Shown: positions 5,012 to 30,698 of the stretch, in pieces | Position numbering within the stretch: position 1 is the first letter of the stretch | How the letters are laid out: each line of letters starts with the position of its first letter | Translations under genes and position numbers: made by a program | Assembly: GCA_942492865.1 (NCBI GenBank) | Contig: OW818650.1 | Span: 23,892 to 87,891 of the forward strand | Source of the DNA: an uncultured Bacteroidales bacterium | GTDB lineage: Bacteria > Bacteroidota > Bacteroidia > Bacteroidales > VadinHA17 | Reading direction: 5' to 3' | Length of the DNA stretch: 64,000 nt | Notes under the pieces: generated by a model | What the model saw: only the letters and a program-made list of their open reading frames with translations | Databases searched by the model: none | Told to the model about the DNA's origin: nothing

Positions 5012-5283
5012 TAACGGCTCGGTGGTTGCGGTAGTAAGCGTTGGTGGCGCCGTCCGCCGTTGCGTGTCCCGGTACTTTAGGTCGGATTAGTCCCGGCGGG
5101 CAAGCCACCATGGCGCAATTTTTGCCAGTCCCGGCGAACGATAAAGTTGTCACGATAAACGGATTTGTCCAGAGCCGGAAGAAACGGAATTGGTAGATAA
5201 GTGAAAAGTTATTCGTCACGAAAAAATTGTCAAGGTAGTGAGCAAAAATTGTGACAAGCTTATTACCTCAACCATCCGGGTTA
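5012..5283 (+). repeat. Cassette-boundary element E6, type D (272 bp)
   Basis: TAACGGCTCGGTGGTTGCGGTAGTAAGC ... GCTTATTACCTCAACCATCCGGGTTA. Same architecture: terminal helix plus an inner CAATTTTTGC/GCAAAAATTG helix. Interior differs, with TTGTCAC-type motifs. Confidence 0.75.
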
Positions 5284-5512
5284 TGGTTAGTTCTAAAATT
5301 AAAACTGTCAAGATATTACGAATTTGTCATGGTAAAGAAATTTGTCTTGGTTCCAAATCCCGGTGAAAGAGCAGGAGTGGTCCAGTTTTACGAATTTGTC
5401 ACAAGTATGAATCCCTGTGGCAATGGTCCCGGTCCCGGATATACGGCGGGAATTGTCAAATATTGGATTTTACCCATAATGTCATAGATAACAAATGGAT
5501 GTTTTTTGGTCA

Positions 5513-6934: not shown

Positions 6935-7127
6935 AAATATTATTTTTTGAATTATGCCTACTCTTTGGTTTTTCGGCCTCCACCAGTTGGTAATAAATAA
7001 GTTTTAGTGTTAATTACTTCACAGCAAAAATCAAACCAATCTTTTTTCTTAGGAATACCATAAAATCGACCTAAAGAACGTGCAGGAATAAGCTAGATAT
7101 AAGATATTTGTAATAGTTAACATCCCG

Positions 7128-7336
7128 GTAGATTAGCAGGTTTTGACTCTCTGTGAGAAATTTGTCACGTTAATAATCCCGGCAGATGGGCAGAAGTAGT
7201 CCAGATTTACGAATTTGTCACGGTTACCAATCCCGGCAAAAGGGCAGGAGTAGTCCAGTTTTACGAATTCGTCACAAGTTACCAATCCCGGTGGCGAAGC
7301 AGGATTTGTCACTATTTATGAACCTTGCTTGAGTTA
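7128..7336 (+). repeat. Degenerate type-D element (E6b) built from about 54-bp iterated units
   Basis: Begins gTTAACATCCCGG and ends GAGTTA followed by the same flank as E6 (TGGTTAGTTCT). The interior holds 3-4 units of AATCCCGG-N-GTAGTCCAG-TTTACGAATTTGTCAC. Confidence 0.5.
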
Positions 7337-12777: not shown

Positions 12778-13169
12778 TAACGGCCCGGCAATAAAATTAG
12801 TAAACGTTACCCGACGCCCGGAGGCCGGTGAGCACTGCACCCTACTATGAAGAAAATGTATCGAGGCCGGAGAAGGAGGGTACGGCGCGTGTTTTTGCAG
12901 TCCAGGCAGAGAATTTAATTGAGTATTACGAGTGTCGCGGTACAAAATGTGATGCGCGCCATATGTTGTCCCCGGTTACAGAGTGATCTAGGTGCATAGG
13001 TGCAGTGTCGCGGTACAAGGCTGATGCGCGCCGGTTGTTGTCCACGGTTACTGATGTTTCTACGGGCAGAGGCGGGAATCCGGGTTTATCACCACGCCAG
13101 TTGTTGTCCAACGAGCAGAGAATCAATGCAAAAACCGTGACGAGTTTATTAATTTTATTGTCCGTGTTA
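12778..13169 (+). repeat. Cassette-boundary element E9, type A (392 bp)
   Basis: Same termini and interior as E1. Used as the exemplar for the fold analysis. Confidence 0.9.
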
Positions 13170-13840: not shown

Positions 13841-15727
13841 ATCGAGTAGGTAAAGGGGAGTTTCACCCCTAAACCTCTCACGGAACCGTACGTGATACTC
13901 TCGCATCATACGGCTCTTGTTATACAAAAAAAGTCAAGCGGTTTCGAAGCCATGCTGCCAGTGTACAAATAAATCGGGTTGCCGTTTAGCAAGATCCCGA
14001 ATCCATCGACCAGCTTTCTTATGACTACCATTAAACCGTTTATACCGTTTAACCACCCACATGTTCAACCTGCGATGAAAGACACTGAATATCCACTGTA
14101 ACTCGTGTTTCCTGTATTTCCCAAAGTGATCAATCCAGCTCTTAATCTTCGGGTTGAAGAAAGCAGCTATGTGGTATATATCCCTGTTGGTCCAATTGTG
14201 AAAATTTGAGTCACGTATCTCGTCAATGATCCTCTTCTCGTTCTTCTTGCTAATCGCACAATCAAATCCTAAGAACATTCTGCCCTCTTCTTTATTCATT
14301 GCCGGTCTTGGCTGAAAGCTGAATCCCAGAAAATCAAACTGCACTGTATTATAGTCGGCATTGCGCCGTGCTTTCTTACAGTATACAATTTTCGTCTTCT
14401 TTTCATTCAGTTGCAGCTTGCATTCGACCATTCTCTCCCTTATGGCTTTTAGAACTTCCTCTGCTTCCTGCTGCGTATTACAGTGAACAATTATGTCATC
14501 TGCATAGCGTACAAATCGAAGCTTCGGGTATGTCTTTCCAAGCCATTTGTCAAAAGCATAATGAAGGAATAGGTTCGCAAGCAGAGGACTAATTACTCCT
14601 CCCTGCGGTGTGCCCTCTCCCATCCTGTATCTCTTGCCACCTTTTCTATCTTCTATCGCGGCTTCAAGCCACCTCACGAGATACATCTTTACCCATTTCT
14701 CCTCAACATGCCTTTCAACTGCCTTCATGAGCAGCTCGTGTGACATCTTGTCGAAGAAACTTGATATGTCCATGTCGACAACCCACTCGAACTCCCGCAC
14801 ATTTCTACGAACCTGTGCGATTGCCTGATGAGTACTTCTAAGTGGTCGATATCCGTAAGAGCTTTCCACAAATATAGCTTCAAAGCGGGCTTCAAGGTAA
14901 TCTTTGATGACCTGCTGCGCTATCCGGTCTCTTACTATGGGTATTCCAAGCTTACGCTTTCTCCCATCATCCTTAGGAATTTCTACTTCGAGAACTGAAG
15001 TTGGTCGGTAGCTGCCTGAACTCAGGCGGTTCCAGATCACATAGAGATTGTTAGATAATTTCTCTTCAAACTTCTCCAGAGTCTCCCCATCTATCCCGGC
15101 TGCTCCCTTGTTCTTCTTTACTCTCTTGTAGGCGGCGACTACCATTTCCTGGGTAATCGGTATGCTTTTCGTCTCCGTTGTCCTACTCCTACCCCGGTTA
15201 TCCAAGGGTGGTAGAGGCAATTTCAACTGTATAACCTCAGCCCTTCGCTCCGCTCCCATTACAGGAGTTTCATCACTACTACGACTGAGTCTGTCCTCAT
15301 ACAAGTCATCAGTATTCGGCCTCCCGGGTTGTCCTCCTGGTTGTGCCTTTCCTTTACCATCCTTGTATGAGTTCCCCTGTTCCATAACTAAGCCTGAATA
15401 GAAATCATGCCCCCTTTATGCCGTCTGCCATGCAGCCAGTAAGCAGGTGCCCGCTGCACTTTGGTCCCCCAGCAGCCATAAACCGGTGGTTTTGACAGAT
15501 TGTCGTTCTCTCGACACTTCATCGAAGGTTCATTTTCATTCATCTTTCCTATTCTTACCTGATCCTTTTGGCAGGACCTTTTCCCCTTACCGTTTAGTAC
15601 CTCGCCGTTGCCAGTTCAGCACCGAGGGGCGGTTTCCGGGTACGCCTGTACGTCCCCGTGAGAGGCCATACTCTCATCTTAATTACAGCATCAGATCCCG
15701 TTGGTACGAGGTCTGTTCAGGGCACAC
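13841..15727 (-). mobile_element. Group II intron, copy 1 (intact, 1887 bp)
   Basis: On the minus strand the 5' end reads GTGTGCCCTGAAC (GUGYG). A 34-nt domain V, GAGCCGTATGATGCGAGAGTATCACGTACGGTTC, is the reverse complement of 13883-13916 and shows the AGC triad, a 2-nt bulge and a GAGA tetraloop. A domain VI-like hairpin follows and the intron ends ...CTACTCGAT. Encodes an RT/maturase. Confidence 0.9.
13934..15385 (-). CDS. Group II intron reverse transcriptase/maturase (no endonuclease domain evident)
   Basis: 483 aa with RT motifs (AAGIDG, RKLGIPIVRDRIAQ, FVRYADDIIVHC) and a C-terminal maturase-like region. Confidence 0.9.
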   Translation of the reverse strand: MEQGNSYKDGKGKAQPGGQPGRPNTDDLYEDRLSRSSDETPVMGAERRAEVIQLKLPLPPLDNRGRSRTTETKSIPITQEMVVAAYKRVKKNKGAAGIDGETLEKFEEKLSNNLYVIWNRLSSGSYRPTSVLEVEIPKDDGRKRKLGIPIVRDRIAQQVIKDYLEARFEAIFVESSYGYRPLRSTHQAIAQVRRNVREFEWVVDMDISSFFDKMSHELLMKAVERHVEEKWVKMYLVRWLEAAIEDRKGGKRYRMGEGTPQGGVISPLLANLFLHYAFDKWLGKTYPKLRFVRYADDIIVHCNTQQEAEEVLKAIRERMVECKLQLNEKKTKIVYCKKARRNADYNTVQFDFLGFSFQPRPAMNKEEGRMFLGFDCAISKKNEKRIIDEIRDSNFHNWTNRDIYHIAAFFNPKIKSWIDHFGKYRKHELQWIFSVFHRRLNMWVVKRYKRFNGSHKKAGRWIRDLAKRQPDLFVHWQHGFETA

Positions 15728-17613
15728 ATCGAGTAGGTAAAGGGGAGTTTCACCCCTAAACCTCTCACGGAACCGTACGTGATACTCTCGCATCATACGG
15801 CTCTTGTTATACAAAAAAAGTCAAGCGGTTTCGAAGCCATGCTGCCAGTGTACAAATAAATCGGGTTGCCGTTTAGCAAGATCCCGAATCCATCGACCAG
15901 CTTTCTTATGACTACCATTAAACCGTTTATACCGTTTAACCACCCACATGTTCAACCTGCGATGAAAGACACTGAATATCCACTGTAACTCGTGTTTCCT
16001 GTATTTCCCAAAGTGATCAATCCAGCTCTTAATCTTCGGGTTGAAGAAAGCAGCTATGTGGTATATATCCCTGTTGGTCCAATTGTGAAAATTTGAGTCA
16101 CGTATCTCGTCAATGATCCTCTTCTCGTTCTTCTTGCTAATCGCACAATCAAATCCTAAGAACATTCTGCCCTCTTCTTTATTCATTGCCGGTCTTGGCT
16201 GAAAGCTGAATCCCAGAAAATCAAACTGCACTGTATTATAGTCGGCATTGCGCCGTGCTTTCTTACAGTATACAATTTTCGTCTTCTTTTCATTCAGTTG
16301 CAGCTTGCATTCGACCATTCTCTCCCTTATGGCTTTTAGAACTTCCTCTGCTTCCTGCTGCGTATTACAGTGAACAATTATGTCATCTGCATAGCGTACA
16401 AATCGAAGCTTCGGGTATGTCTTTCCAAGCCATTTGTCAAAAGCATAATGAAGGAATAGGTTCGCAAGCAGAGGACTAATTACTCCTCCTGCGGTGTGCC
16501 CTCTCCCATCCTGTATCTCTTGCCACCTTTTCTATCTTCTATCGCGGCTTCAAGCCACCTCACGAGATACATCTTTACCCATTTCTCCTCAACATGCCTT
16601 TCAACTGCCTTCATGAGCAGCTCGTGTGACATCTTGTCGAAGAAACTTGATATGTCCATGTCGACAACCCACTCGAACTCCCGCACATTTCTACGAACCT
16701 GTGCGATTGCCTGATGAGTACTTCTAAGTGGTCGATATCCGTAAGAGCTTTCCACAAATATAGCTTCAAAGCGGGCTTCAAGGTAATCTTTGATGACCTG
16801 CTGCGCTATCCGGTCTCTTACTATGGGTATTCCAAGCTTACGCTTTCTCCCATCATCCTTAGGAATTTCTACTTCGAGAACTGAAGTTGGTCGGTAGCTG
16901 CCTGAACTCAGGCGGTTCCAGATCACATAGAGATTGTTAGATAATTTCTCTTCAAACTTCTCCAGAGTCTCCCCATCTATCCCGGCTGCTCCCTTGTTCT
17001 TCTTTACTCTCTTGTAGGCGGCGACTACCATTTCCTGGGTAATCGGTATGCTTTTCGTCTCCGTTGTCCTACTCCTACCCCGGTTATCCAAGGGTGGTAG
17101 AGGCAATTTCAACTGTATAACCTCAGCCCTTCGCTCCGCTCCCATTACAGGAGTTTCATCACTACTACGACTGAGTCTGTCCTCATACAAGTCATCAGTA
17201 TTCGGCCTCCCGGGTTGTCCTCCTGGTTGTGCCTTTCCTTTACCATCCTTGTATGAGTTCCCCTGTTCCATAACTAAGCCTGAATAGAAATCATGCCCCC
17301 TTTATGCCGTCTGCCATGCAGCCAGTAAGCAGGTGCCCGCTGCACTTTGGTCCCCCAGCAGCCATAAACCGGTGGTTTTGACAGATTGTCGTTCTCTCGA
17401 CACTTCATCGAAGGTTCATTTTCATTCATCTTTCCTATTCTTACCTGATCCTTTTGGCAGGACCTTTTCCCCTTACCGTTTAGTACCTCGCCGTTGCCAG
17501 TTCAGCACCGAGGGGCGGTTTCCGGGTACGCCTGTACGTCCCCGTGAGAGGCCATACTCTCATCTTAATTACAGCATCAGATCCCGTTGGTACGAGGTCT
17601 GTTCAGGGCACAC
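15728..17613 (-). mobile_element. Group II intron, copy 2 (1886 bp, head-to-tail with copy 1)
   Basis: By eye identical to copy 1 except for one missing C in the run at about 16488-16490. Its 5' end lies 8 nt from the TAAC of E10. Confidence 0.85.
15821..17271 (-). pseudogene. Frameshifted group II intron RT/maturase
   Basis: A 1-nt deletion (ctccctgc becomes ctcctgc) splits the ORF into 16480-17271 and 15821-16318, which otherwise translate identically to copy 1. Confidence 0.85.
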
Positions 17614-17621
17614 ATGACACC

Positions 17622-24828: not shown

Positions 24829-26388
24829 TCATTCATGTACTCCAGTCTTTTCCAGGTGCAAATAATCAACTACCTGCTCTTTCACGTCAAGATCCTCAAT
24901 AGGACTTCTGATTGCCACCAGATTCCTGCGGCTGACGTGAGTATATATCTCTGTTGTGCGGGTGCTTTTGTGACCAAGTAGCTCCTGAATATATCTTATA
25001 TCAAGTCCATTCTCATGCAGATGCGTTGCGTAACTGTGCCTCAGGCTGTGAACGCCCACTTCCTTCTGTATGCCGGCATCTCTTAATGCTTTCTTGAAAA
25101 CATGATAAACGCTTTCAACGGAATACCGCTGACCCCTCTGGCCTTCAAAAAGATATTTTCCCGGACGATGGCTTTCAAGATACTCATCAACCTTCGGCCA
25201 GAGTTTACCTGGCACCGGAACAATCCGGTCAACTCCCCCCTTCCCTTCCCGAATGTGAAGAATATTACGCTCCCTGTCAAAATCGGTGAGCCTGATATTT
25301 GTAACCTCCGATCTCCTCAGCCCACAGGAATAAATAATCCAAAGGAGCAACTTGTGCTTGCTGTTACGCGCAGAGTTAAGTATTCTGGCTATCTCATCTT
25401 TGGAAAAGACCTTCGGCAATGCTCTGCTGCGCCTGGGCCTCTCAAGTATCCCGGGTATAATTCTCCCTTTTCCGGCGAGCTCATAATAAAGCTTGATCGC
25501 CGAAACCATCTGGTTTTGAAATGATGCGGAAAAGCCGTGCTTCAAAACAAAGTCATTAATGAAGTCCGACACTTCATTATGGGATATTTCATGCGGATCT
25601 TTTGTATGATAGTACTTAAAAAATAATTCAAGCTGGGAAATGTATGACTCAATTGTCCTGTTACTATACCTGTATTCTTCGAGATGCCTCCGTAAAAGTT
25701 CAACTCCTTCCCTTGCAGCTGTTTTAAGTTCCCTTGACCTTACTTCTTCACCTGAGGCCTTCCGGGCCTCTGCAACATCTGCTTTTGGTGCCTGCTTTAA
25801 TACAATGACCTTCACCCCCTGGCCAGAGAAGTAATCGGACAATGAATCAACGGTAATCTTCGACCACTTAAGAAGAAACTCCCTGTGAACCTTGTCATAA
25901 TAATACTTACCGTAACTTCTGATCTCATCAATCCATTTCTTATCATAGTAACCGGTGAACCTTACAGACAACCGCTCATCTTCAATGCGGAATTCAACCG
26001 GTGAATATCCTGATGTGAATGACCTTTCATGGAAATCTTTTTTTCCTTCAACTAAGTCATCATCACGGATTTTCTCTTTAACTATTTTTATTTCAGTTCT
26101 GGGGATGAGCGCTTCTTCCTCATGATGATCAGGAACATGATCAGGTATTTTGAGCCCGCCATAGTAGGCTGTATTCGATAGATCGATATCTGCTACCTCC
26201 CTGAAAGCCATCAGAACCTTCCTGAGGTTTTCTTTGTTATCCTCAATATGCCAGCATTTTAGCGAACCGCTGTAATTAACTCCATTAAGTTGTTTTGTAA
26301 TTGAAATAAGTTCCCTGTCATACACGAATTCAAGAGACAATCTTCGCCTTTCATCATGTATGATGTGCCTTACAGTGATCTTTTTCAT
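24829..26388 (-). CDS. Tyrosine recombinase/integrase with a long N-terminal extension
   Basis: C-terminal catalytic motifs: GLRRSE (R), HSLRHSYATH (HxxR), LLGHKS, IYTHV (Y). Preceded by about 250 aa, including two similar modules (RRRLSLEFVYD... and ERLSVRFTGYYD...). Start taken at MKKITVRH (26388). The ORF track extends to 26496. Confidence 0.85.
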   Translation of the reverse strand: MKKITVRHIIHDERRRLSLEFVYDRELISITKQLNGVNYSGSLKCWHIEDNKENLRKVLMAFREVADIDLSNTAYYGGLKIPDHVPDHHEEEALIPRTEIKIVKEKIRDDDLVEGKKDFHERSFTSGYSPVEFRIEDERLSVRFTGYYDKKWIDEIRSYGKYYYDKVHREFLLKWSKITVDSLSDYFSGQGVKVIVLKQAPKADVAEARKASGEEVRSRELKTAAREGVELLRRHLEEYRYSNRTIESYISQLELFFKYYHTKDPHEISHNEVSDFINDFVLKHGFSASFQNQMVSAIKLYYELAGKGRIIPGILERPRRSRALPKVFSKDEIARILNSARNSKHKLLLWIIYSCGLRRSEVTNIRLTDFDRERNILHIREGKGGVDRIVPVPGKLWPKVDEYLESHRPGKYLFEGQRGQRYSVESVYHVFKKALRDAGIQKEVGVHSLRHSYATHLHENGLDIRYIQELLGHKSTRTTEIYTHVSRRNLVAIRSPIEDLDVKEQVVDYLHLEKTGVHE

Positions 26389-26652: not shown

Positions 26653-26726
26653 CGGGGTGTGGCGCAGTTGGCTAGCGCACTTGCATGGGGTGCAAGGGGT
26701 CGTCCGTTCAAGTCGGATCACCCCGA
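26653..26726 (+). tRNA. tRNA-Pro (anticodon GGG)
   Basis: Hand-folded cloverleaf. Acceptor CGGGGTG/CACCCCG with C1:G72, D stem GCGC/GCGC, anticodon stem CTTGC/GCAAG, loop ATGGGGT (U33, GGG, G37), T arm GTCCG-TTCAAGT-CGGAT, discriminator A. Confidence 0.85.
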
Positions 26727-26740
26727 CAAAAGGTATAATG

Positions 26741-27217: not shown

Positions 27218-30200
27218 TTATCTGAAAACTACCAAGTTTTTTGAAATTATGCCCTTTGCGGTCGAGATTTTCATTAAATAGTTTCCTGTTGAAAGTTGCG
27301 AGAGATCGATTCTAACCTTTTGTGACTTTATCGTTTTTTCTAATAAAACTGAACCTAACAAATTTAAAACTTGGACATGGTTTAAAATTAAGTCAGACTC
27401 AAGTACAACCTCATGATTTGCCGGATTTGGATAAACTTTAATATTTAATGATTCAGTTTCTGCAATGGACGATATGTTTTTCTTTGCGAGAACATTCATG
27501 GTTATCCCATACCAAGAACCAAGATACAAGCCGCCAATTTGATCATGAATTGAAAACCCAGAATATGGAATTCCATCTGAAGAATAATGCACATAATAAT
27601 GTCTGTTAACGTTATAAAAATTTGCTCCGTTCTTGGTAAGCAAAAAAGTTTGATCTTCCGATAATCCAATACAGGAAATCCAATCATTAATGTTTGATAT
27701 TGCTTTTAAATCAGCCCAGTCTGCAATAGAATAATTTTCGCCGAATTCTGATTGAATTCGTGTATTAAGATTTTCCGTTTCAGCATATTGTCCTTTTGTT
27801 AATAAAAAATTATTACATAAAGGATTTGATCCCTGAGTAAAATTTGCTACGAGGTTCCTGTTTGATGTTAGAGTGAAGGTATATGTTGCATTAGAAGATA
27901 CCACTGATCCGCTTTCCGTCCAGTTAGAAAATGAATAGCCACTGGTTGGAGTTGCTGTTACTGATCGGGAGGTTCCACTCTGGAATGTCCCAGATCCGTT
28001 AGTAGTACCGCCACCTGAGGGATTAGAAGAAGTAGTGATAGTATAGTTTACAGGATTCTGTGTGAAATTTGCTACGAGGTTCCTGTTTGATGTTAGAGTG
28101 AAGGTATATGTTGCATTAGAAGATACCACTGATCCGCTTTCCGTCCAGTTAGAAAATGAATAGCCGCTGGTTGGAGTTGCTGTTACTGATCGGGAGGTTC
28201 CACTCTGGAATGTCCCAGATCCGTTAGTAGTACCGCCACCTGAGGGATTAGAAGAAGTAGTGATAGTATAGTTTACAGGATTCTGTGTGAAATTTGCTAC
28301 GAGGTTCCTGTTTGATGTTAGAGTGAAGGTATATGTTGCATTAGAAGATACCACTGATCCGCTTTCCGTCCAGTTAGAAAATGAATAGCCACTGGTTGGA
28401 GTTGCTGTTACTGATCGGGAGGTTCCACTCTGGAATGTCCCAGATCCGTTAGTAGTACCGCCACCTGAGGGATTAGAAGAAGTAGTGATAGTATAGTTTA
28501 CAGGATTCTGTGTGAAATTTGCTACGAGGTTCCTGTTTGATGTTAGAGTGAAGGTATATGTTGCATTAGAAGATACCACTGATCCGCTTTCCGTCCAGTT
28601 AGAAAATGAATAGCCACTGGTTGGAGTTGCTGTTACTGATCGGGAGGTTCCACTCTGGAATGTCCCAGATCCGTTAGTAGTACCGCCACCTGAGGGATTA
28701 GAAGAAGTAGTGATAGTATAGTTTACAGGATTCTGTGTGAAATTTGCTACGAGGTTCCTGTTTGATGTTAGAGTGAAGGTATATGTTGCATTAGAAGATA
28801 CCACTGATCCGCTTTCCGTCCAGTTAGAAAATGAATAGCCGCTGGTTGGAGTTGCTGTTACTGATCGGGAGGTTCCACTCTGGAATGTCCCAGATCCGTT
28901 AGTAGTACCGCCACCTGAGGGATTAGAAGAAGTAGTGATAGTATAGTTTACAGGATTCTGTGTGAAATTTGCTACGAGGTTACTGTTTGATGTTAGAGTG
29001 AAGGTATATGTTGCATTAGAAGATACCACTGATCCGCTTTCCGTCCAGTTAGAAAATGAATAGCCACTGGTTGGAGTTGCTGTTACTGATCGGGAGGTTC
29101 CACATAGATATGTCCCAGATCCTCCAGTAGTGCCTCCTCCTGTAGGATTTGAGGATAAATTAATTGAATAGTATATCGGTGAGAAGTGAGCGAAAAGATT
29201 TGTATTTTCATAAACATAAAAAGAATATGTAGCATTTGTTGATACAACCGAACCGTTATCATTAGTCCAATAGTTGAATGAATAACAATTTTTTGGCGTA
29301 GCGGTAACAATTACCTTATCTCCGTAAAAATAAGTCCCATTTCCAGATGTTGTGCCGCCATTGGAGGGAACCGAGGATGTTGAAACCAGATTTGTTTCCC
29401 TTATAAAAATCCCTCTTTCTCTCTGAGTTGTCATATTCCCAACATTATCATAAGCACGAACTCTAAAAAAATATGTATGACCTCTTACTCCTGTAAATGA
29501 ATAATTAAATTCAGGTCCAATATTTGGGAATGGTGATAATTGTTGCCATGCAGCAGCATTTGTAGTTACAAATCCGACATTATCTGCATATTCTAATTCA
29601 ACCTTCCAAATGCCACTCTCGTTACCAGTATTATTTAGATTATCTATTGGGTATGTGTAAACAATAAATGATGTTTCATCACTAAGGTCTCCCATAGGAA
29701 TTTCATTATTGTTGCTATCATAAATACCAATGTAGGCCCCCCCGCTGAAAATGGCAAAAACAGGAGCATCAGCATCGGTAATTTGTTGAATGAATTTTGT
29801 TTCAACAAGGTCATCAAACAATAAATCATTTTCCTTCAGTTCGAGATGCAAATATTTAGATGGCTTATCTGAATATGTTGGATTCAAGACCTGCATGTTA
29901 AATGTGAAATATGACATACTTCCAAGTGAAATTATATTCGATTTGTTATTGCTTGAAGTAGAAAAAAATGAATTCCATGGTAATGTTGGCTCATCTGCAA
30001 TATTAAGATAATATTTCCCAGATTCATTGGCTCTTATTTTTAAACCAACTATTGCACCATTAGTTGGAAGATTGTTACGAGAAGGTAGGTAGATAGGACC
30101 TGTAAGAGAATTTGGGACATAAACTCTATATTGGTCAATGCCAATGTTGCTACCACTTATTTCAGTAATATATGCTTGAGAGGAAGCTTGGGTTACGGTT

Positions 30201-30313
30201 AAAATTAATAGCAATGTTCCCAATAATATAAAATGGAATTTGGTTCTAATACTAACGCCTAATCGAATTATGGCTTCAAATGAACCTGCTATTATTTTTG
30301 TTAATTTATACAT
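27218..30313 (-). CDS. T9SS-sorted surface protein with seven Listeria-Bacteroides (InlB B-type) repeats
   Basis: 1031 aa with an N-terminal signal/TM. Seven 75-aa repeats contain the GYSFSNWTE pattern. The C-terminal VYPNPANHEVVLE...GNYLMKI...VVFR looks like a Por/T9SS sorting domain. Confidence 0.8.
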   Translation of the reverse strand: MYKLTKIIAGSFEAIIRLGVSIRTKFHFILLGTLLLILTVTQASSQAYITEISGSNIGIDQYRVYVPNSLTGPIYLPSRNNLPTNGAIVGLKIRANESGKYYLNIADEPTLPWNSFFSTSSNNKSNIISLGSMSYFTFNMQVLNPTYSDKPSKYLHLELKENDLLFDDLVETKFIQQITDADAPVFAIFSGGAYIGIYDSNNNEIPMGDLSDETSFIVYTYPIDNLNNTGNESGIWKVELEYADNVGFVTTNAAAWQQLSPFPNIGPEFNYSFTGVRGHTYFFRVRAYDNVGNMTTQRERGIFIRETNLVSTSSVPSNGGTTSGNGTYFYGDKVIVTATPKNCYSFNYWTNDNGSVVSTNATYSFYVYENTNLFAHFSPIYYSINLSSNPTGGGTTGGSGTYLCGTSRSVTATPTSGYSFSNWTESGSVVSSNATYTFTLTSNSNLVANFTQNPVNYTITTSSNPSGGGTTNGSGTFQSGTSRSVTATPTSGYSFSNWTESGSVVSSNATYTFTLTSNRNLVANFTQNPVNYTITTSSNPSGGGTTNGSGTFQSGTSRSVTATPTSGYSFSNWTESGSVVSSNATYTFTLTSNRNLVANFTQNPVNYTITTSSNPSGGGTTNGSGTFQSGTSRSVTATPTSGYSFSNWTESGSVVSSNATYTFTLTSNRNLVANFTQNPVNYTITTSSNPSGGGTTNGSGTFQSGTSRSVTATPTSGYSFSNWTESGSVVSSNATYTFTLTSNRNLVANFTQNPVNYTITTSSNPSGGGTTNGSGTFQSGTSRSVTATPTSGYSFSNWTESGSVVSSNATYTFTLTSNRNLVANFTQGSNPLCNNFLLTKGQYAETENLNTRIQSEFGENYSIADWADLKAISNINDWISCIGLSEDQTFLLTKNGANFYNVNRHYYVHYSSDGIPYSGFSIHDQIGGLYLGSWYGITMNVLAKKNISSIAETESLNIKVYPNPANHEVVLESDLILNHVQVLNLLGSVLLEKTIKSQKVRIDLSQLSTGNYLMKISTAKGIISKNLVVFR
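27839..29188. repeat. Six tandem 225-bp units inside the CDS (five near-identical)
   Basis: The GAAATTTGCTACGAGGTT anchor recurs at 28064, 28289, 28514, 28739 and 28964, an exact 225-nt period. The 27839 unit carries a variant anchor (AAAATTTGCTACGAGGTT) at the same spacing. Only a few substitutions separate the units. Confidence 0.9.
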
Positions 30314-30659
30314 ATTTATGATTTTTGATCAGTATAGTTTATACAAAAATGGATTTCAATAGGGGAAATGTCGATTTCAGTAAGAATTTATTAAGATATC
30401 TTCTAAAGAGTTATATTTTTATTCTAACTATAATTTGATTATCAGATCTTTATAAATATATAAAATTTACGATTTTCGATATTATTAACAATAATTGAAA
30501 GGTTACGCTTTACTTTAAGTGTGATAAAAGTTACAATAAAATGATCAACGGTTGTTACACAAATTAGATTATTTTGACAAATCCCTGACTTTTTTGGATG
30601 AAATGCATATTTTAAATTGTTAAGTCTTGATGAAGTTATCTGGTCACTTGCTGCTGGTT

Positions 30660-30698
30660 CAAGGGGTCGTCCGTTCAAGTCGGATCACCCCGACAAAA
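30660..30698 (+). other. 39-bp direct repeat of the tRNA-Pro 3' half (att-like; decayed tRNA remnant)
   Basis: CAAGGGGTCGTCCGTTCAAGTCGGATCACCCCGACAAAA is identical to 26693-26731. Upstream, cacttgc also matches, but there is no acceptor 5' strand. A hairpin plus T-run follows. Confidence 0.8.

What the first reader, a model, noticed from the sequence alone, without database searches (positions are those of the whole stretch)
12930..13115. Internal sub-repeats that echo the element's own right-end sequence
In types A and B the interior contains two roughly 72-nt tandem modules. Each reads GTGTCGCGGTACAA-N-GATGCGCGCC-N-GTTGTCCnCGGTTAC. In E9 they lie at about 12932-12982 and 13004-13054. A third partial module, CCAGTTGTTGTCCAACG, follows.

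The TTGTCCnCGGTTAC block resembles the real right terminus TTGTCCGTGTTAG. Its complement GTAACCGnGG resembles the left terminus TAACGGCCCGG.

The element therefore carries four spaced CGGT(T)ACA motifs and four TTGTCC motifs. This looks more like an array of protein-binding (arm-type or accessory) sites or pseudo-core sites than a simple hairpin. The recombinase at 24829-26388 has a duplicated N-terminal module that could read repeated sites. That link is speculation.
Basis: partly seen in the sequence, partly recalled or inferred. Interest (0 to 1): 0.6.

Follow-up and report, generated by a model that had tools for sequence, protein, structure and literature searches.

The report
Repeated protein-docking boxes inside giant recombination sites
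The repeats inside this 392-base gene-cassette recombination site are real and do not look like folded stems; they are a one-directional row of short conserved boxes, probably docking sites for the extra front-end domains that only the recombinases serving such giant sites possess.

Summary
Two modules repeat at a 72-nt offset: 39 of 51 bases match, against at most 29 in shuffles.

The anatomy needs revising:
- The repeat has three tandem units (12900-12967, 12968-13039, 13040-13105).
E9 has eight interior copies plus a box-like right terminus, all in the same direction and 28-40 nt apart.

Helices do not explain them:
- No compensatory changes occur inside the interior.
- Cognate hairpin arms pair no better than swapped arms.
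- The interior folds worse than shuffled sequence.
- Boxes are conserved across element types and lineages, while spacers and periods vary.

E9 is a giant attC-like site of the Bacteroidales integron-like cassette system, which this scan has already noted in at least 149 genomes.

What is new here:
- The site interior is a box array.
- Box arrays and 337-412-nt sites occur only beside about 505-aa recombinases with two tandem N-terminal modules, which are weakly HARP-like.
- Relatives with one or no module sit beside 120-190-nt sites without boxes.

Accessory ("arm-type") protein binding is therefore the best reading, but it is inferred, not shown.

The parts
12778..13169 (+). Element E9, a giant attC-like recombination site (392 nt). 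The + strand is the better-folding 'bottom' strand.
   Evidence: One of 11 copies in the window and at least 56 in the genome (54 extracted, plus type-G copies found). The ends are TAAC...GTTA. The flank rule and the strand bias are shown.
12778..12810 (+). P1 5' arm: TAAC, the partly unpaired GGCCCGGC, then AATAAAATTAGTAAACGTTAC.
   Evidence: Pairs with 13137-13169. Compensatory changes occur between element types. 0 of 33 columns vary among type A copies.
13137..13169 (+). P1 3' arm, ending in the box-like terminus GTCCGTGTTA (13160-13169).
12886..12899 (+). P2 5' strand, GGCGCGTGTTTTTGC. It is also the breakpoint of two chimeric elements elsewhere in the genome.
   Evidence: Pairs with 13128-13141. 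It is invariant in types A, B and D. E11 shows a compensatory GG/CC to AA/TT change (read). Chimeras were read.
13128..13141 (+). P2 3' strand, GCAAAAACCGTGAC.
12900..12967 (+). Tandem unit I: box GTCCAGGCAGAG, a spacer, box GTCGCGGTACAA, and a spacer containing GATGCGCGCC.
   Evidence: Unit I against II gives alignment z 11.9.
12968..13039 (+). Tandem unit II: box GTCCCCGGTTACAG, a spacer, box GTCGCGGTACAA, and a spacer containing GATGCGCGCC.
   Evidence: offset-72 match.
13040..13105 (+). Tandem unit III, diverged: box GTCCACGGTTACTG, a spacer, box aTCCGGGTTTATC, a spacer.
   Evidence: Unit II against III gives z 6.4.
12932..12982 (+).
13005..13054 (+).
13097..13113 (+). It contains the start of the last interior box (13106).
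12860..12872 (+). Box 0 (ATCGAGGCCGGAG) in the left domain. It is homologous to GTCACGGTGCA of type D.
   Evidence: type D box at position 80; sequence.
12934..12945 (+). Box GTCGCGGTACAA, the most conserved interior motif. A second copy lies at 13007-13018.
   Evidence: GCGGTACAA occurs 64 times in 54 elements against 0.06 expected.
24829..26388 (-). The cognate tyrosine recombinase, 519 aa. It has a Xer/IntI-like core-binding and catalytic part (about residues 260-519) and lacks the IntI-specific insertion.
   Evidence: It is the only such gene in the genome.
26173..26388 (-). N-terminal module 1 (residues 1-72). Its topology is beta-beta-alpha-beta-beta-alpha-beta, and it is weakly HARP-like. 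It is shared with the 345-387-aa relatives.
   Evidence: pLDDT above 90. Weak HARP signals. Homology to the single module of the shorter relatives.
25789..26007 (-). N-terminal module 2 (residues 128-200). It has the same topology as module 1. It is found only in the roughly 505-aa recombinases that serve giant box-bearing sites, and it follows a disordered linker (residues 75-127).

Best explanation
E9 is a giant attC-like recombination site of an integron-like cassette array. Its two ends pair (helix P1) on the + strand, and this forms the site where strand exchange occurs. A second long-range helix, P2, closes off a 228-nt interior.

That interior is not a folded stem. It is three tandem copies of a unit of about 72 nt. 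Each unit carries two copies of a box, GTC-N2-3-GGT-(T)RCA, all pointing the same way. The boxes most likely serve as accessory ('arm-type') protein-binding sites.

The best candidate reader is the recombinase itself, through its two tandem N-terminal modules. Module 2 is the stronger candidate, because it is found only in recombinases that serve giant sites. Several protomers docking on the box row would organise the long interior and hold the distant P1 arms together, or control when and on which strand the site is used.

Shown here: the repeat, the box, its orientation, spacing and conservation, the lack of helices, and the co-occurrence with the two-module recombinase.

Inferred: that a protein binds the boxes, which protein it is, whether binding is on single- or double-stranded DNA, and what binding achieves.
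For: **The repeat and the box are real.**
- Offset-72 match of 39/51 against a shuffle maximum of 29. There are three tandem units.
- The strict box pattern occurs 76 times on the + strand of 54 elements, against 0.33 expected from the rest of the genome. It occurs 0 times on the other strand.
- Successive boxes are 33-39 nt apart in 91 elements from 10 genomes, with harmonics at about 72 and about 105.

**Boxes are conserved and spacers are not.**
- Information content across types A, B and D.
- Within type A, 16 of 91 box columns vary against 42 of 140 spacer columns (Fisher p 0.04).

**Helices do not explain the interior.**
- The consensus fold finds only P1, P2 and two minor stems.
- A helix scan finds compensatory changes only in P1.
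- Cognate hairpin arms give -2.08 kcal/mol against -1.89 +/- 0.16 for permuted arms, and 39 of 300 permutations do as well.
- Interior folding-energy z is +0.75 on the + strand and +1.16 on the - strand against dinucleotide shuffles.

**Comparison with relatives.**
- Recombinases of about 505 aa with two modules (own genus, L021, L101, L102/L103) sit beside 337-412-nt sites.
- Their site interiors hold 0.83-1.96 boxes per 100 nt on the bottom strand, against 0.01-0.19 on the top strand.
- Recombinases with only module 1 or none sit beside 120-190-nt sites. These have 0 boxes in the one-module site interiors and 1 box in 455 nt in the no-module interiors.
- Distant lineages keep the box but change the period to 18, 28-30 or about 58 nt.

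**The recombinase.**
- Both N-terminal modules are confidently predicted.
- Three weak, independent signals point to the nucleic-acid-binding HARP fold.
- There is no conserved accessory gene next to the recombinase.
- The genome has only one such recombinase.
Against: - No binding data exist.
- The co-occurrence probably reflects one evolutionary event: the two-module recombinases are each other's closest relatives by identity. It therefore counts as roughly one observation.
- The HARP similarity is below every significance threshold: 15 bits against a Pfam cut-off of 25, Foldseek E 0.12, hmmsearch E 0.21.
- A synapse would hold few recombinase protomers, but each site has 8-9 boxes.
- Type C, the commonest type in this genome, has degenerate boxes that lack GTC.
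- The within-type conservation contrast is modest (p 0.04), and copies are related.
- One two-module recombinase (L104) has no array within 10 kb.
- Spacing is not a whole number of helical turns and differs between lineages. This argues against a rigid double-stranded nucleoprotein wrap.
Confidence: 0.5

Rival explanations
1. The modules are the two strands of conserved helices in the folded single strand. On this reading the interior is an elaborate variable terminal structure of the attC-like hairpin, and the motifs are conserved because they pair.
For: ACAA at the end of the even boxes can pair with TTGT before the next box. In module 1 of type A this extends to about 9 of 10 pairs (read). 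A small palindrome, CACTG-GYG-CAGTG, lies between the modules. Classical attC sites do have structured interiors.
Against: - Cognate arms pair no better than swapped arms.
- No helix in the interior shows compensatory change, whereas P1 does.
- The consensus fold leaves the modules unpaired.
- The interior is less stable than dinucleotide shuffles on both strands.
- The two motifs are direct repeats of one box, not complements of each other.
Confidence: 0.08
2. The boxes are pseudo-core or secondary crossover sites. They would be copies of the terminal recombinase-binding sequence at which the enzyme can bind, or even exchange strands, and this would generate the variation in module number and the chimeric elements.
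For: The right terminus GTCCGTGTTA is box-like: it matches the interior variant GTCCGGGTGCA at 7 of 10 positions and TCCGGGTTTA closely. Distant lineages also share GTCCG.GT between terminus and boxes. The number of units varies from 1 to 3 between types. About 6 of 91 elements are chimeric.
Against: - In the two chimeras I mapped (genome 4521158 and 4557883), the breakpoint lies at the P2 5' strand and not at a box.
- No element was found truncated at an internal box followed by a cassette flank.
- The GTTA part of the resemblance is specific to some types.
- A lone half-site with no inverted partner cannot support cleavage in known tyrosine recombinase chemistry (established knowledge).
- Unequal homologous exchange explains the variation in unit number equally well.
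Confidence: 0.12
3. The boxes act at the RNA level or in transcription. They could be binding sites for an RNA-binding protein, part of a small RNA or insulator made from the element, or promoter/terminator-related signals for the neighbouring cassettes.
For: The elements lie between co-oriented cassette genes and must be transcribed in any read-through. The strict strand orientation of the boxes would also suit an RNA signal.
Against: - No Rfam family matches, even at E up to 5.
- No structure is conserved in the interior.
- The boxes do not resemble the Bacteroidetes promoter consensus TAnnTTTG / TTTG (from memory).
- The link with the recombinase's domain architecture would have no explanation.
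Confidence: 0.1
4. The boxes are bound by a different protein: a host nucleoid or architectural protein, or a single-strand-binding factor, and not the recombinase's N-terminal modules.
For: All the evidence that the boxes are binding sites applies here too. There are more boxes per site than recombinase protomers in a synapse. Classical integrons depend on host factors (PMC8946536).
Against: No conserved accessory gene lies next to the recombinase. The boxes occur at background frequency elsewhere in the window and genome. Box arrays track the recombinase architecture.
Confidence: 0.12
5. The repeats are neutral by-products of slippage or unequal crossing-over in a dispensable spacer. Their apparent conservation would come from recent common ancestry and gene conversion among copies.
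For: Copies within a type are 92-95% identical. Unit number and period differ between types and lineages. Chimeras show that the copies recombine with one another.
Against: The same box, in the same orientation, persists across types that are otherwise unalignable in the spacers. It also persists in lineages whose recombinases are only about 57% identical. Spacers diverge while boxes do not. The interior avoids self-structure.
Confidence: 0.08

Closest known systems
Integron attC sites (R''-L''...L'-R' imperfect palindromes with extrahelical bases, an unpaired central spacer and a variable terminal structure; PMC2727003, PMC5027507)
   Same: - The ends are inverted cores of RYYYAAC / GTTRRRY type.
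- The flank beyond each GTTA belongs to the next cassette. Complementarity between the right flank of one element and the left flank of the next is 5.9 of 8, against 2.7 for random pairs.
- One strand folds better, and it is the strand opposite the cassette genes: 48 of 49 elements.
- The sites separate co-oriented, mostly single-gene cassettes downstream of a tyrosine recombinase.
   Different: - The site is 272-484 nt here. Classical attC sites are about 55-141 nt (figure from memory).
- Its interior is a conserved row of direct-repeat boxes, not a hairpin tip.
- The recombinase lacks the IntI-specific insertion and has about 205 extra N-terminal residues.
Direct repeats DR1 and DR2 of the class 1 integron attI1 site (supplementary IntI1 binding sites that favour attI1 x attC recombination; PMC8946536)
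   Same: They are extra, same-orientation recombinase-binding repeats beside the crossover site of an integron. They are accessory, not catalytic.
   Different: - DR1 and DR2 are two sites in the double-stranded attI, and IntI1 itself binds them without a dedicated extra domain.
- Here there are 8-9 boxes inside every cassette-borne site.
- Binding has not been shown here.
Arm-type sites of lambda attP and of conjugative-transposon integrases, read by a separate N-terminal arm-binding domain of the integrase (established knowledge; structures 1z1b, 1z1g and 5j0n appeared)
   Same: A tyrosine recombinase with an additional N-terminal DNA-binding part, together with a recombination site of several hundred bases that holds multiple copies of a short motif distinct from the core.
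   Different: - Lambda arm sites flank a double-stranded core on both sides, in mixed orientations, and work with IHF, Xis and Fis.
- Here the boxes all point one way and lie inside the loop enclosed by the paired ends.
- The N-terminal modules do not match the lambda Int N-domain in the fold search.
HARP / substrate-recognition domain of SMARCAL1 (PDB 4o66; Pfam PF07443). It occurs as a tandem pair and is needed for annealing-helicase activity (Ghosal et al. 2011, cited in PMC9371921).
   Same: The N-terminal modules form a tandem pair with beta-beta-alpha-beta-beta-alpha topology. HARP is the best or second-best weak match by three methods.
   Different: All matches are below significance. 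HARP recognises DNA structure, not sequence (from memory). HARP has not been reported fused to a recombinase.

Membership tests
Integron attC site | Inverted core sites of RYYYAAC / GTTRRRY type at the two ends | tested here: met
   All copies begin (flank)TAAC and end GTTA(flank), for example ACCTAAC...GTTAGGT at E9.
Integron attC site | Split-site rule: the bases after G|TT belong to the next cassette and match that cassette's own far end | tested here: met
   Right flank of element n against left flank of n+1 gives 5.9 of 8 complementary. The same element's own flanks give 2.7, and random pairs give 2.75.
Integron attC site | Imperfect palindrome whose bottom strand is the better-folding recombination substrate | tested here: met
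   P1 duplex energy is -30.1 on the + strand against -24.3 kcal/mol on the - strand, with + better in 48 of 49. The cargo genes are on the - strand. P1 shows compensatory changes. Actual use of the strand was not tested.
Integron attC site | Length of roughly 55-141 nt with a hairpin-like variable terminal structure | tested here: not met
   Lengths are 272-484 nt. The interior has no conserved helix and folds worse than shuffles.
Integron attC site | Served by an IntI integrase that carries the IntI-specific additional domain | tested here: not met
   TIGR02249 scores 200 bits against a cut-off of 265 and matches in two stretches. The best NCBIfam model is XerA/integron-integrase, at 220.5 against 220.
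Arm-type (accessory) recombinase-binding sites | Multiple copies of a short conserved motif, distinct from the crossover core, inside the recombination site | tested here: met
   76 strict boxes against 0.33 expected. Spacing is, and conservation.
Arm-type (accessory) recombinase-binding sites | The recombinase has a separate N-terminal DNA-binding domain | tested here: inconclusive
   Two well-predicted N-terminal modules exist. Their DNA-binding nature rests only on sub-threshold HARP and MotA-like similarities.
Arm-type (accessory) recombinase-binding sites | Physical binding of that domain to the motif, and dependence of recombination on it | not testable with these tools
   This needs gel-shift, footprinting and recombination assays. 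The only support here is co-occurrence.
HARP domain (PF07443), for the recombinase N-terminal modules | A score above the Pfam gathering threshold, or a significant structural match to 4o66 | tested here: not met
   15.1 bits against a cut-off of 25, in 3 of 16 members. Foldseek gives E 0.12, probability 0.87, TM 0.55 on the target. The profile search against PDB gives E 0.21. This is a lead, not membership.

The most novel reading that the evidence does not exclude
Giant attC-like sites are a new kind of recombination substrate. A short paired stem carries the crossover point, and a long, deliberately unstructured single-stranded interior acts as a landing pad. Its periodic boxes would be read by tandem HARP-like modules of a Xer-type recombinase. 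This would replace the IntI-specific domain as the means of recognising a folded single strand, and would bring lambda-style arm-site control into an integron-like system.
Probability: 0.22. Interest if true: 0.8.

Novelty: new variant of a known kind. Interest (0 to 1): 0.6.

Why it matters
Classical integrons recognise their cassette sites by shape alone. They use a domain unique to IntI, and their cassette sites carry no accessory binding sites.

This Bacteroidales system lacks that domain, yet it maintains arrays of about 95 kb. This analysis gives a concrete, testable idea of what replaced it: a row of sequence boxes in the site and two extra modules on the enzyme, which appear together in evolution.

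If confirmed, three things follow:
- It would explain why these sites are three times longer than any known attC.
- It would give a signature (box density plus two-module recombinase) for finding such arrays, which standard integron finders miss.
- It would add a new design, an accessory-site scaffold on a folded single strand, to the repertoire of site-specific recombination.

I found no paper describing this system in the searchable library.

Tried and rejected
- **Tandem Repeats Finder** did not report the 72-nt repeat. I replaced it with an offset scan, autocorrelation and unit alignments.
- **Intramodule hairpin** (ACAA.../...TTGT). It looked convincing by eye in module 1 of type A and in some type D copies, but it failed the swapped-arm permutation test.
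- **All-against-all column covariation**. It was swamped by the split between types A/B and type D, because any two columns that differ between the clades appear to covary. I replaced it with a stacked-helix scan.
- **A 10-bp pairing between the two GTCGCGGTAC boxes**. I rejected it: it comes from the CGCG palindrome plus G:T wobbles and has no covariation.
- **Rfam**, at gathering thresholds and at E up to 5, found nothing on the element.
- **A conserved accessory gene beside the recombinase.** The 152-aa ORFs in the window and in L103 are unrelated.
- **Fold search with the full-length model.** It returned only Xer, IntI, lambda and Cre catalytic domains, so the N-terminus was modelled and searched alone.
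- **The end-pairing element finder at -17 kcal/mol.** It gave 4-26 false positives per 10 kb of control DNA, so I used only hits at -23 or better. Two long 'elements' beside one-module recombinases (L040, 303 nt; L054, 294 nt) proved to be false positives.
- **36-nt periodicity as the primary repeat.** Autocorrelation shows 72-74 nt is primary. The 36-nt signal is only the short box.

Full report
**1. Context**

The window is part of a complete 4.57-Mb genome. The genome is from Bacteroidota, judged by a type-IX secretion tail in a neighbouring gene.

A repeated element bounded by TAACGGCCCGG...GTCCGTGTTA occurs 11 times in the window. It occurs at least 56 times in the genome: 54 were extracted, and one search added type-G copies that the first pattern missed.

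The copies form one array of about 95 kb that wraps the start of the contig, plus a small second array near 1.1 Mb. The cargo genes lie on the - strand, between the elements.

The elements obey integron logic:
- The 8 bases after each GTTA are complementary to the 8 bases before the next element's TAAC: 5.9 of 8, against 2.7 for random pairs.
- The two ends of each element pair with each other (helix P1), with compensatory changes between element types.
- P1 is more stable on the + strand in 48 of 49 copies. The + strand is the 'bottom' strand relative to the cargo genes.

Downstream of the array's end lies the only matching recombinase in the genome (24829-26388, - strand, 519 aa). Its C-terminal 260 residues are Xer/IntI-like but lack the IntI-specific insertion.

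This scan has met the same Bacteroidales integron-like system in at least 149 other genomes. I found no paper describing it. The question here is narrower: what are the sub-repeats inside E9?

**2. The observation**

It is correct.
- Module 1 is at 12932-12979.
- The partial third copy is at 13097-13113.

The best ungapped self-match of E9 is at offset 72, with 39 of 51 identities. The maximum in 60 shuffles was 29. Across 83 elements the autocorrelation peaks at 72-74 nt (z about 15). Tandem Repeats Finder misses the repeat.

**3. Revised anatomy**

I laid out the interiors of 83 elements from ten genomes of the genus side by side.

In E9 the boxes start at 12860, 12900, 12934, 12968, 13007, 13040, 13078 and 13106. 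The right terminus at 13160 (GTCCGTGTTA) is box-like.

The interior between the P2 strands (12886-12899 paired with 13128-13141) consists of three tandem units of two boxes each:
- Unit I, 12900-12967.
- Unit II, 12968-13039 (I against II, z 11.9).
- Unit III, 13040-13105 (II against III, z 6.4).

Type C elements, about 328 nt, have a single unit with degenerate boxes.

The strict box pattern occurs 76 times on the + strand of the 54 elements, against 0.33 expected from the rest of the genome. It never occurs on the - strand. Successive boxes lie 33-39 nt apart, with harmonics near 72 and 105. Outside the elements the box occurs at background frequency.

**4. Are the motifs just paired strands of helices?**

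The answer is no.
- A consensus fold of 43 elements of types A, B and D finds P1, P2 and two trivial stems, and leaves the modules unpaired.
- A scan for stacked, conserved pairs finds compensatory changes only in P1. P2 is invariant in that set, although E11 shows a compensatory GG/CC to AA/TT change.
- The one plausible local hairpin, ACAA+n pairing with n+TTGT, fails a permutation test. Cognate arms give -2.08 kcal/mol and shuffled partners give -1.89 +/- 0.16, with 39 of 300 permutations doing as well.
- The interior folds less well than dinucleotide shuffles on both strands, with mean z of +0.75 and +1.16. The whole element is unremarkable, at z -1.3 and -1.0.
- Rfam has no match.

The conservation pattern is the opposite of a helix. 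Short blocks are conserved while the spacers between them vary in sequence but keep their length. Among nine type A copies, 16 of 91 box columns vary against 42 of 140 spacer columns (p 0.04). The P1 arms do not vary at all.

**5. The recombinase**

The true start is at 26388, by comparison with homologues of about 505 aa.

The first 200 residues form two modules of identical predicted topology, beta-beta-alpha-beta-beta-alpha-beta. They span residues 1-72 and 128-200, both with pLDDT above 90, and are joined by a disordered linker. Their profiles align in register (hhalign E 1e-3).

No structure matches significantly. The SMARCAL1 HARP substrate-recognition domain nevertheless recurs in three weak signals:
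- The only Pfam hit: E 0.017, 15 bits against a cut-off of 25, in 3 of 16 members.
- Foldseek rank 2: E 0.12, probability 0.87.
- The top profile hit against PDB sequences: E 0.21.

I treat this as a lead only.

**6.

Among 80 relatives fetched with 10-kb flanks, and four more fetched by identity, the recombinases fall into three architectures:
- No N-terminal module (264-294 aa).
- Module 1 only (345-387 aa). Homology to module 1 has E 2.5e-15 and 1.6e-12, and the 345-353-aa forms are also of module-1 type.
- Both modules (about 505 aa).

I located sites by end-pairing at -23 kcal/mol or better.

| Recombinase | Site length | Loci |
|---|---|---|
| No module | 121-148 nt | L031, L041, L044, L066, L086, L097 |
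| Module 1 only | 120-190 nt | L023, L029, L036, L047, L054, L074, L095 |
| Both modules | 337-412 nt | L021, L101, L102, L103, and this genus |

Two apparent long sites beside one-module enzymes were false positives.

| Site set | Boxes per 100 nt of interior |
|---|---|
| Distant two-module loci, bottom strand | 1.96 |
| Distant two-module loci, top strand | 0.19 |
| This genome, bottom strand | 0.83 |
| This genome, top strand | 0.01 |
| One-module sites | 0 |
| Whole genome | 0.10 |

The distant lineages keep the box (GTCCCGGTAGA, GTCACGATGAA, GTCCGGGTGCC). They arrange it at 18, 28-30 or about 58 nt instead of 36/72. The same alternative type also occurs in this genome.

So the extra DNA of the giant sites consists of boxes, and it appears together with module 2 and its linker.

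Caveats:
- The two-module enzymes are each other's closest relatives (57-100% identity, against 36-50% for the others). This may therefore be a single evolutionary event.
- L102 and L103 are near-duplicates.
- One two-module gene (L104) has no array within 10 kb.

**7. The 'echo of the termini'**

This is partly true. The right terminus shares GTCCG.GT with interior variants such as GTCCGGGTGCA and TCCGGGTTTA, and the same holds in distant lineages.

Several points weaken the idea:
- The GTTAC that suggested it is type-specific.
- The TTG of TTGTCC at the terminus is part of the covarying P1 helix and becomes CCG in type B.
- The likeness of the complement to the left terminus is TAAC only.
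- Chimeric elements exist. In the two I mapped, the breakpoint lies at the P2 5' strand and not at a box.
- I found no element truncated at an internal box.

**8. Conclusion**

The sub-repeats are real and functionally constrained, and they are not helices.

The best-supported reading (about 0.5) is an array of accessory protein-binding boxes in the interior of a giant attC-like site. The recombinase's own tandem N-terminal modules, especially module 2, are the most likely reader. The closest precedents are DR1/DR2 of attI1 (PMC8946536) and lambda-type arm sites. Neither lies inside a cassette-borne folded site.

Binding, the form of the DNA (single- or double-stranded) and the effect on recombination are all inferred.

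Noticed in passing
window 5320-5406 and 7132-7320: Tandem units of about 54 nt (GAATTTGTCACGGTTACCAATCCCGGCAAAAGGGCAGGAGTAGTCCAGTTTTAC) carry the same box at about 18-nt spacing. They lie beside an atypical element that starts TAACATCCCGG (7118) and ends GAGTTA|TGGTTAGTTCT (about 7336), the same junction as E6's right end at 5280. This looks like another site type built from the same box.
   Followed up: partly
genome coordinates 4521158 and 4557883 (outside the window); L002 5019, L012, L008 2957: These elements are chimeric: the left arm is of one type and the right arm of another, so P1 cannot pair. In the two that I mapped, the breakpoint is at the conserved P2 5' strand, GGCGCGTGTTTTTGC. 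They could be dead sites that fuse neighbouring cassettes.
   Followed up: partly
genome coordinates 11606 and 13399 (upstream of the window): The same array holds a second site architecture of about 347 nt. In it P2 lies near the left end and the box units are about 58 nt long. It is nearly identical in plan to the sites of distant loci L021, L102 and L103. One recombinase apparently serves both designs.
   Followed up: partly
window 13841-15727 and 15728-17614 (- strand): Two head-to-tail copies of a group II intron carrying a reverse-transcriptase gene (Rfam RF00029 and RF01999). They are inserted a few bases downstream of E10 on the cassette-coding strand. The known attC-targeting group IIC introns sit on the opposite strand (from memory).
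   Followed up: no
window 26678-26731 and 30645-30698: Two 54-nt direct repeats, 91% identical, that look like tRNA 3' ends. They bracket a 1031-aa secreted repeat protein (27218-30313) just beyond the recombinase gene. This may be an integrated element or a duplicated tRNA end.
   Followed up: no
genome coordinates about 1105443-1115442 (- strand): A second, small cluster of five elements of the same family, with no recombinase of this family nearby. It is the counterpart of an integrase-less attC cluster.
   Followed up: no
L101 12029-13267 and 14239-15477: In a related array, two identical IS91-family (Y2 transposase) copies sit in consecutive cassettes next to 394-396-nt sites.
   Followed up: no
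L104 10001-21512: A two-module recombinase of the same family is followed not by a cassette array but by a block of defence-type genes (an MmeI-like restriction-modification enzyme, a KAP NTPase, DUF4145).
   Followed up: no
window 6955-6986 (- strand): An Rfam DUF805b RNA motif (37 bits, just above its threshold of 35.6) upstream of a cassette gene.
   Followed up: no
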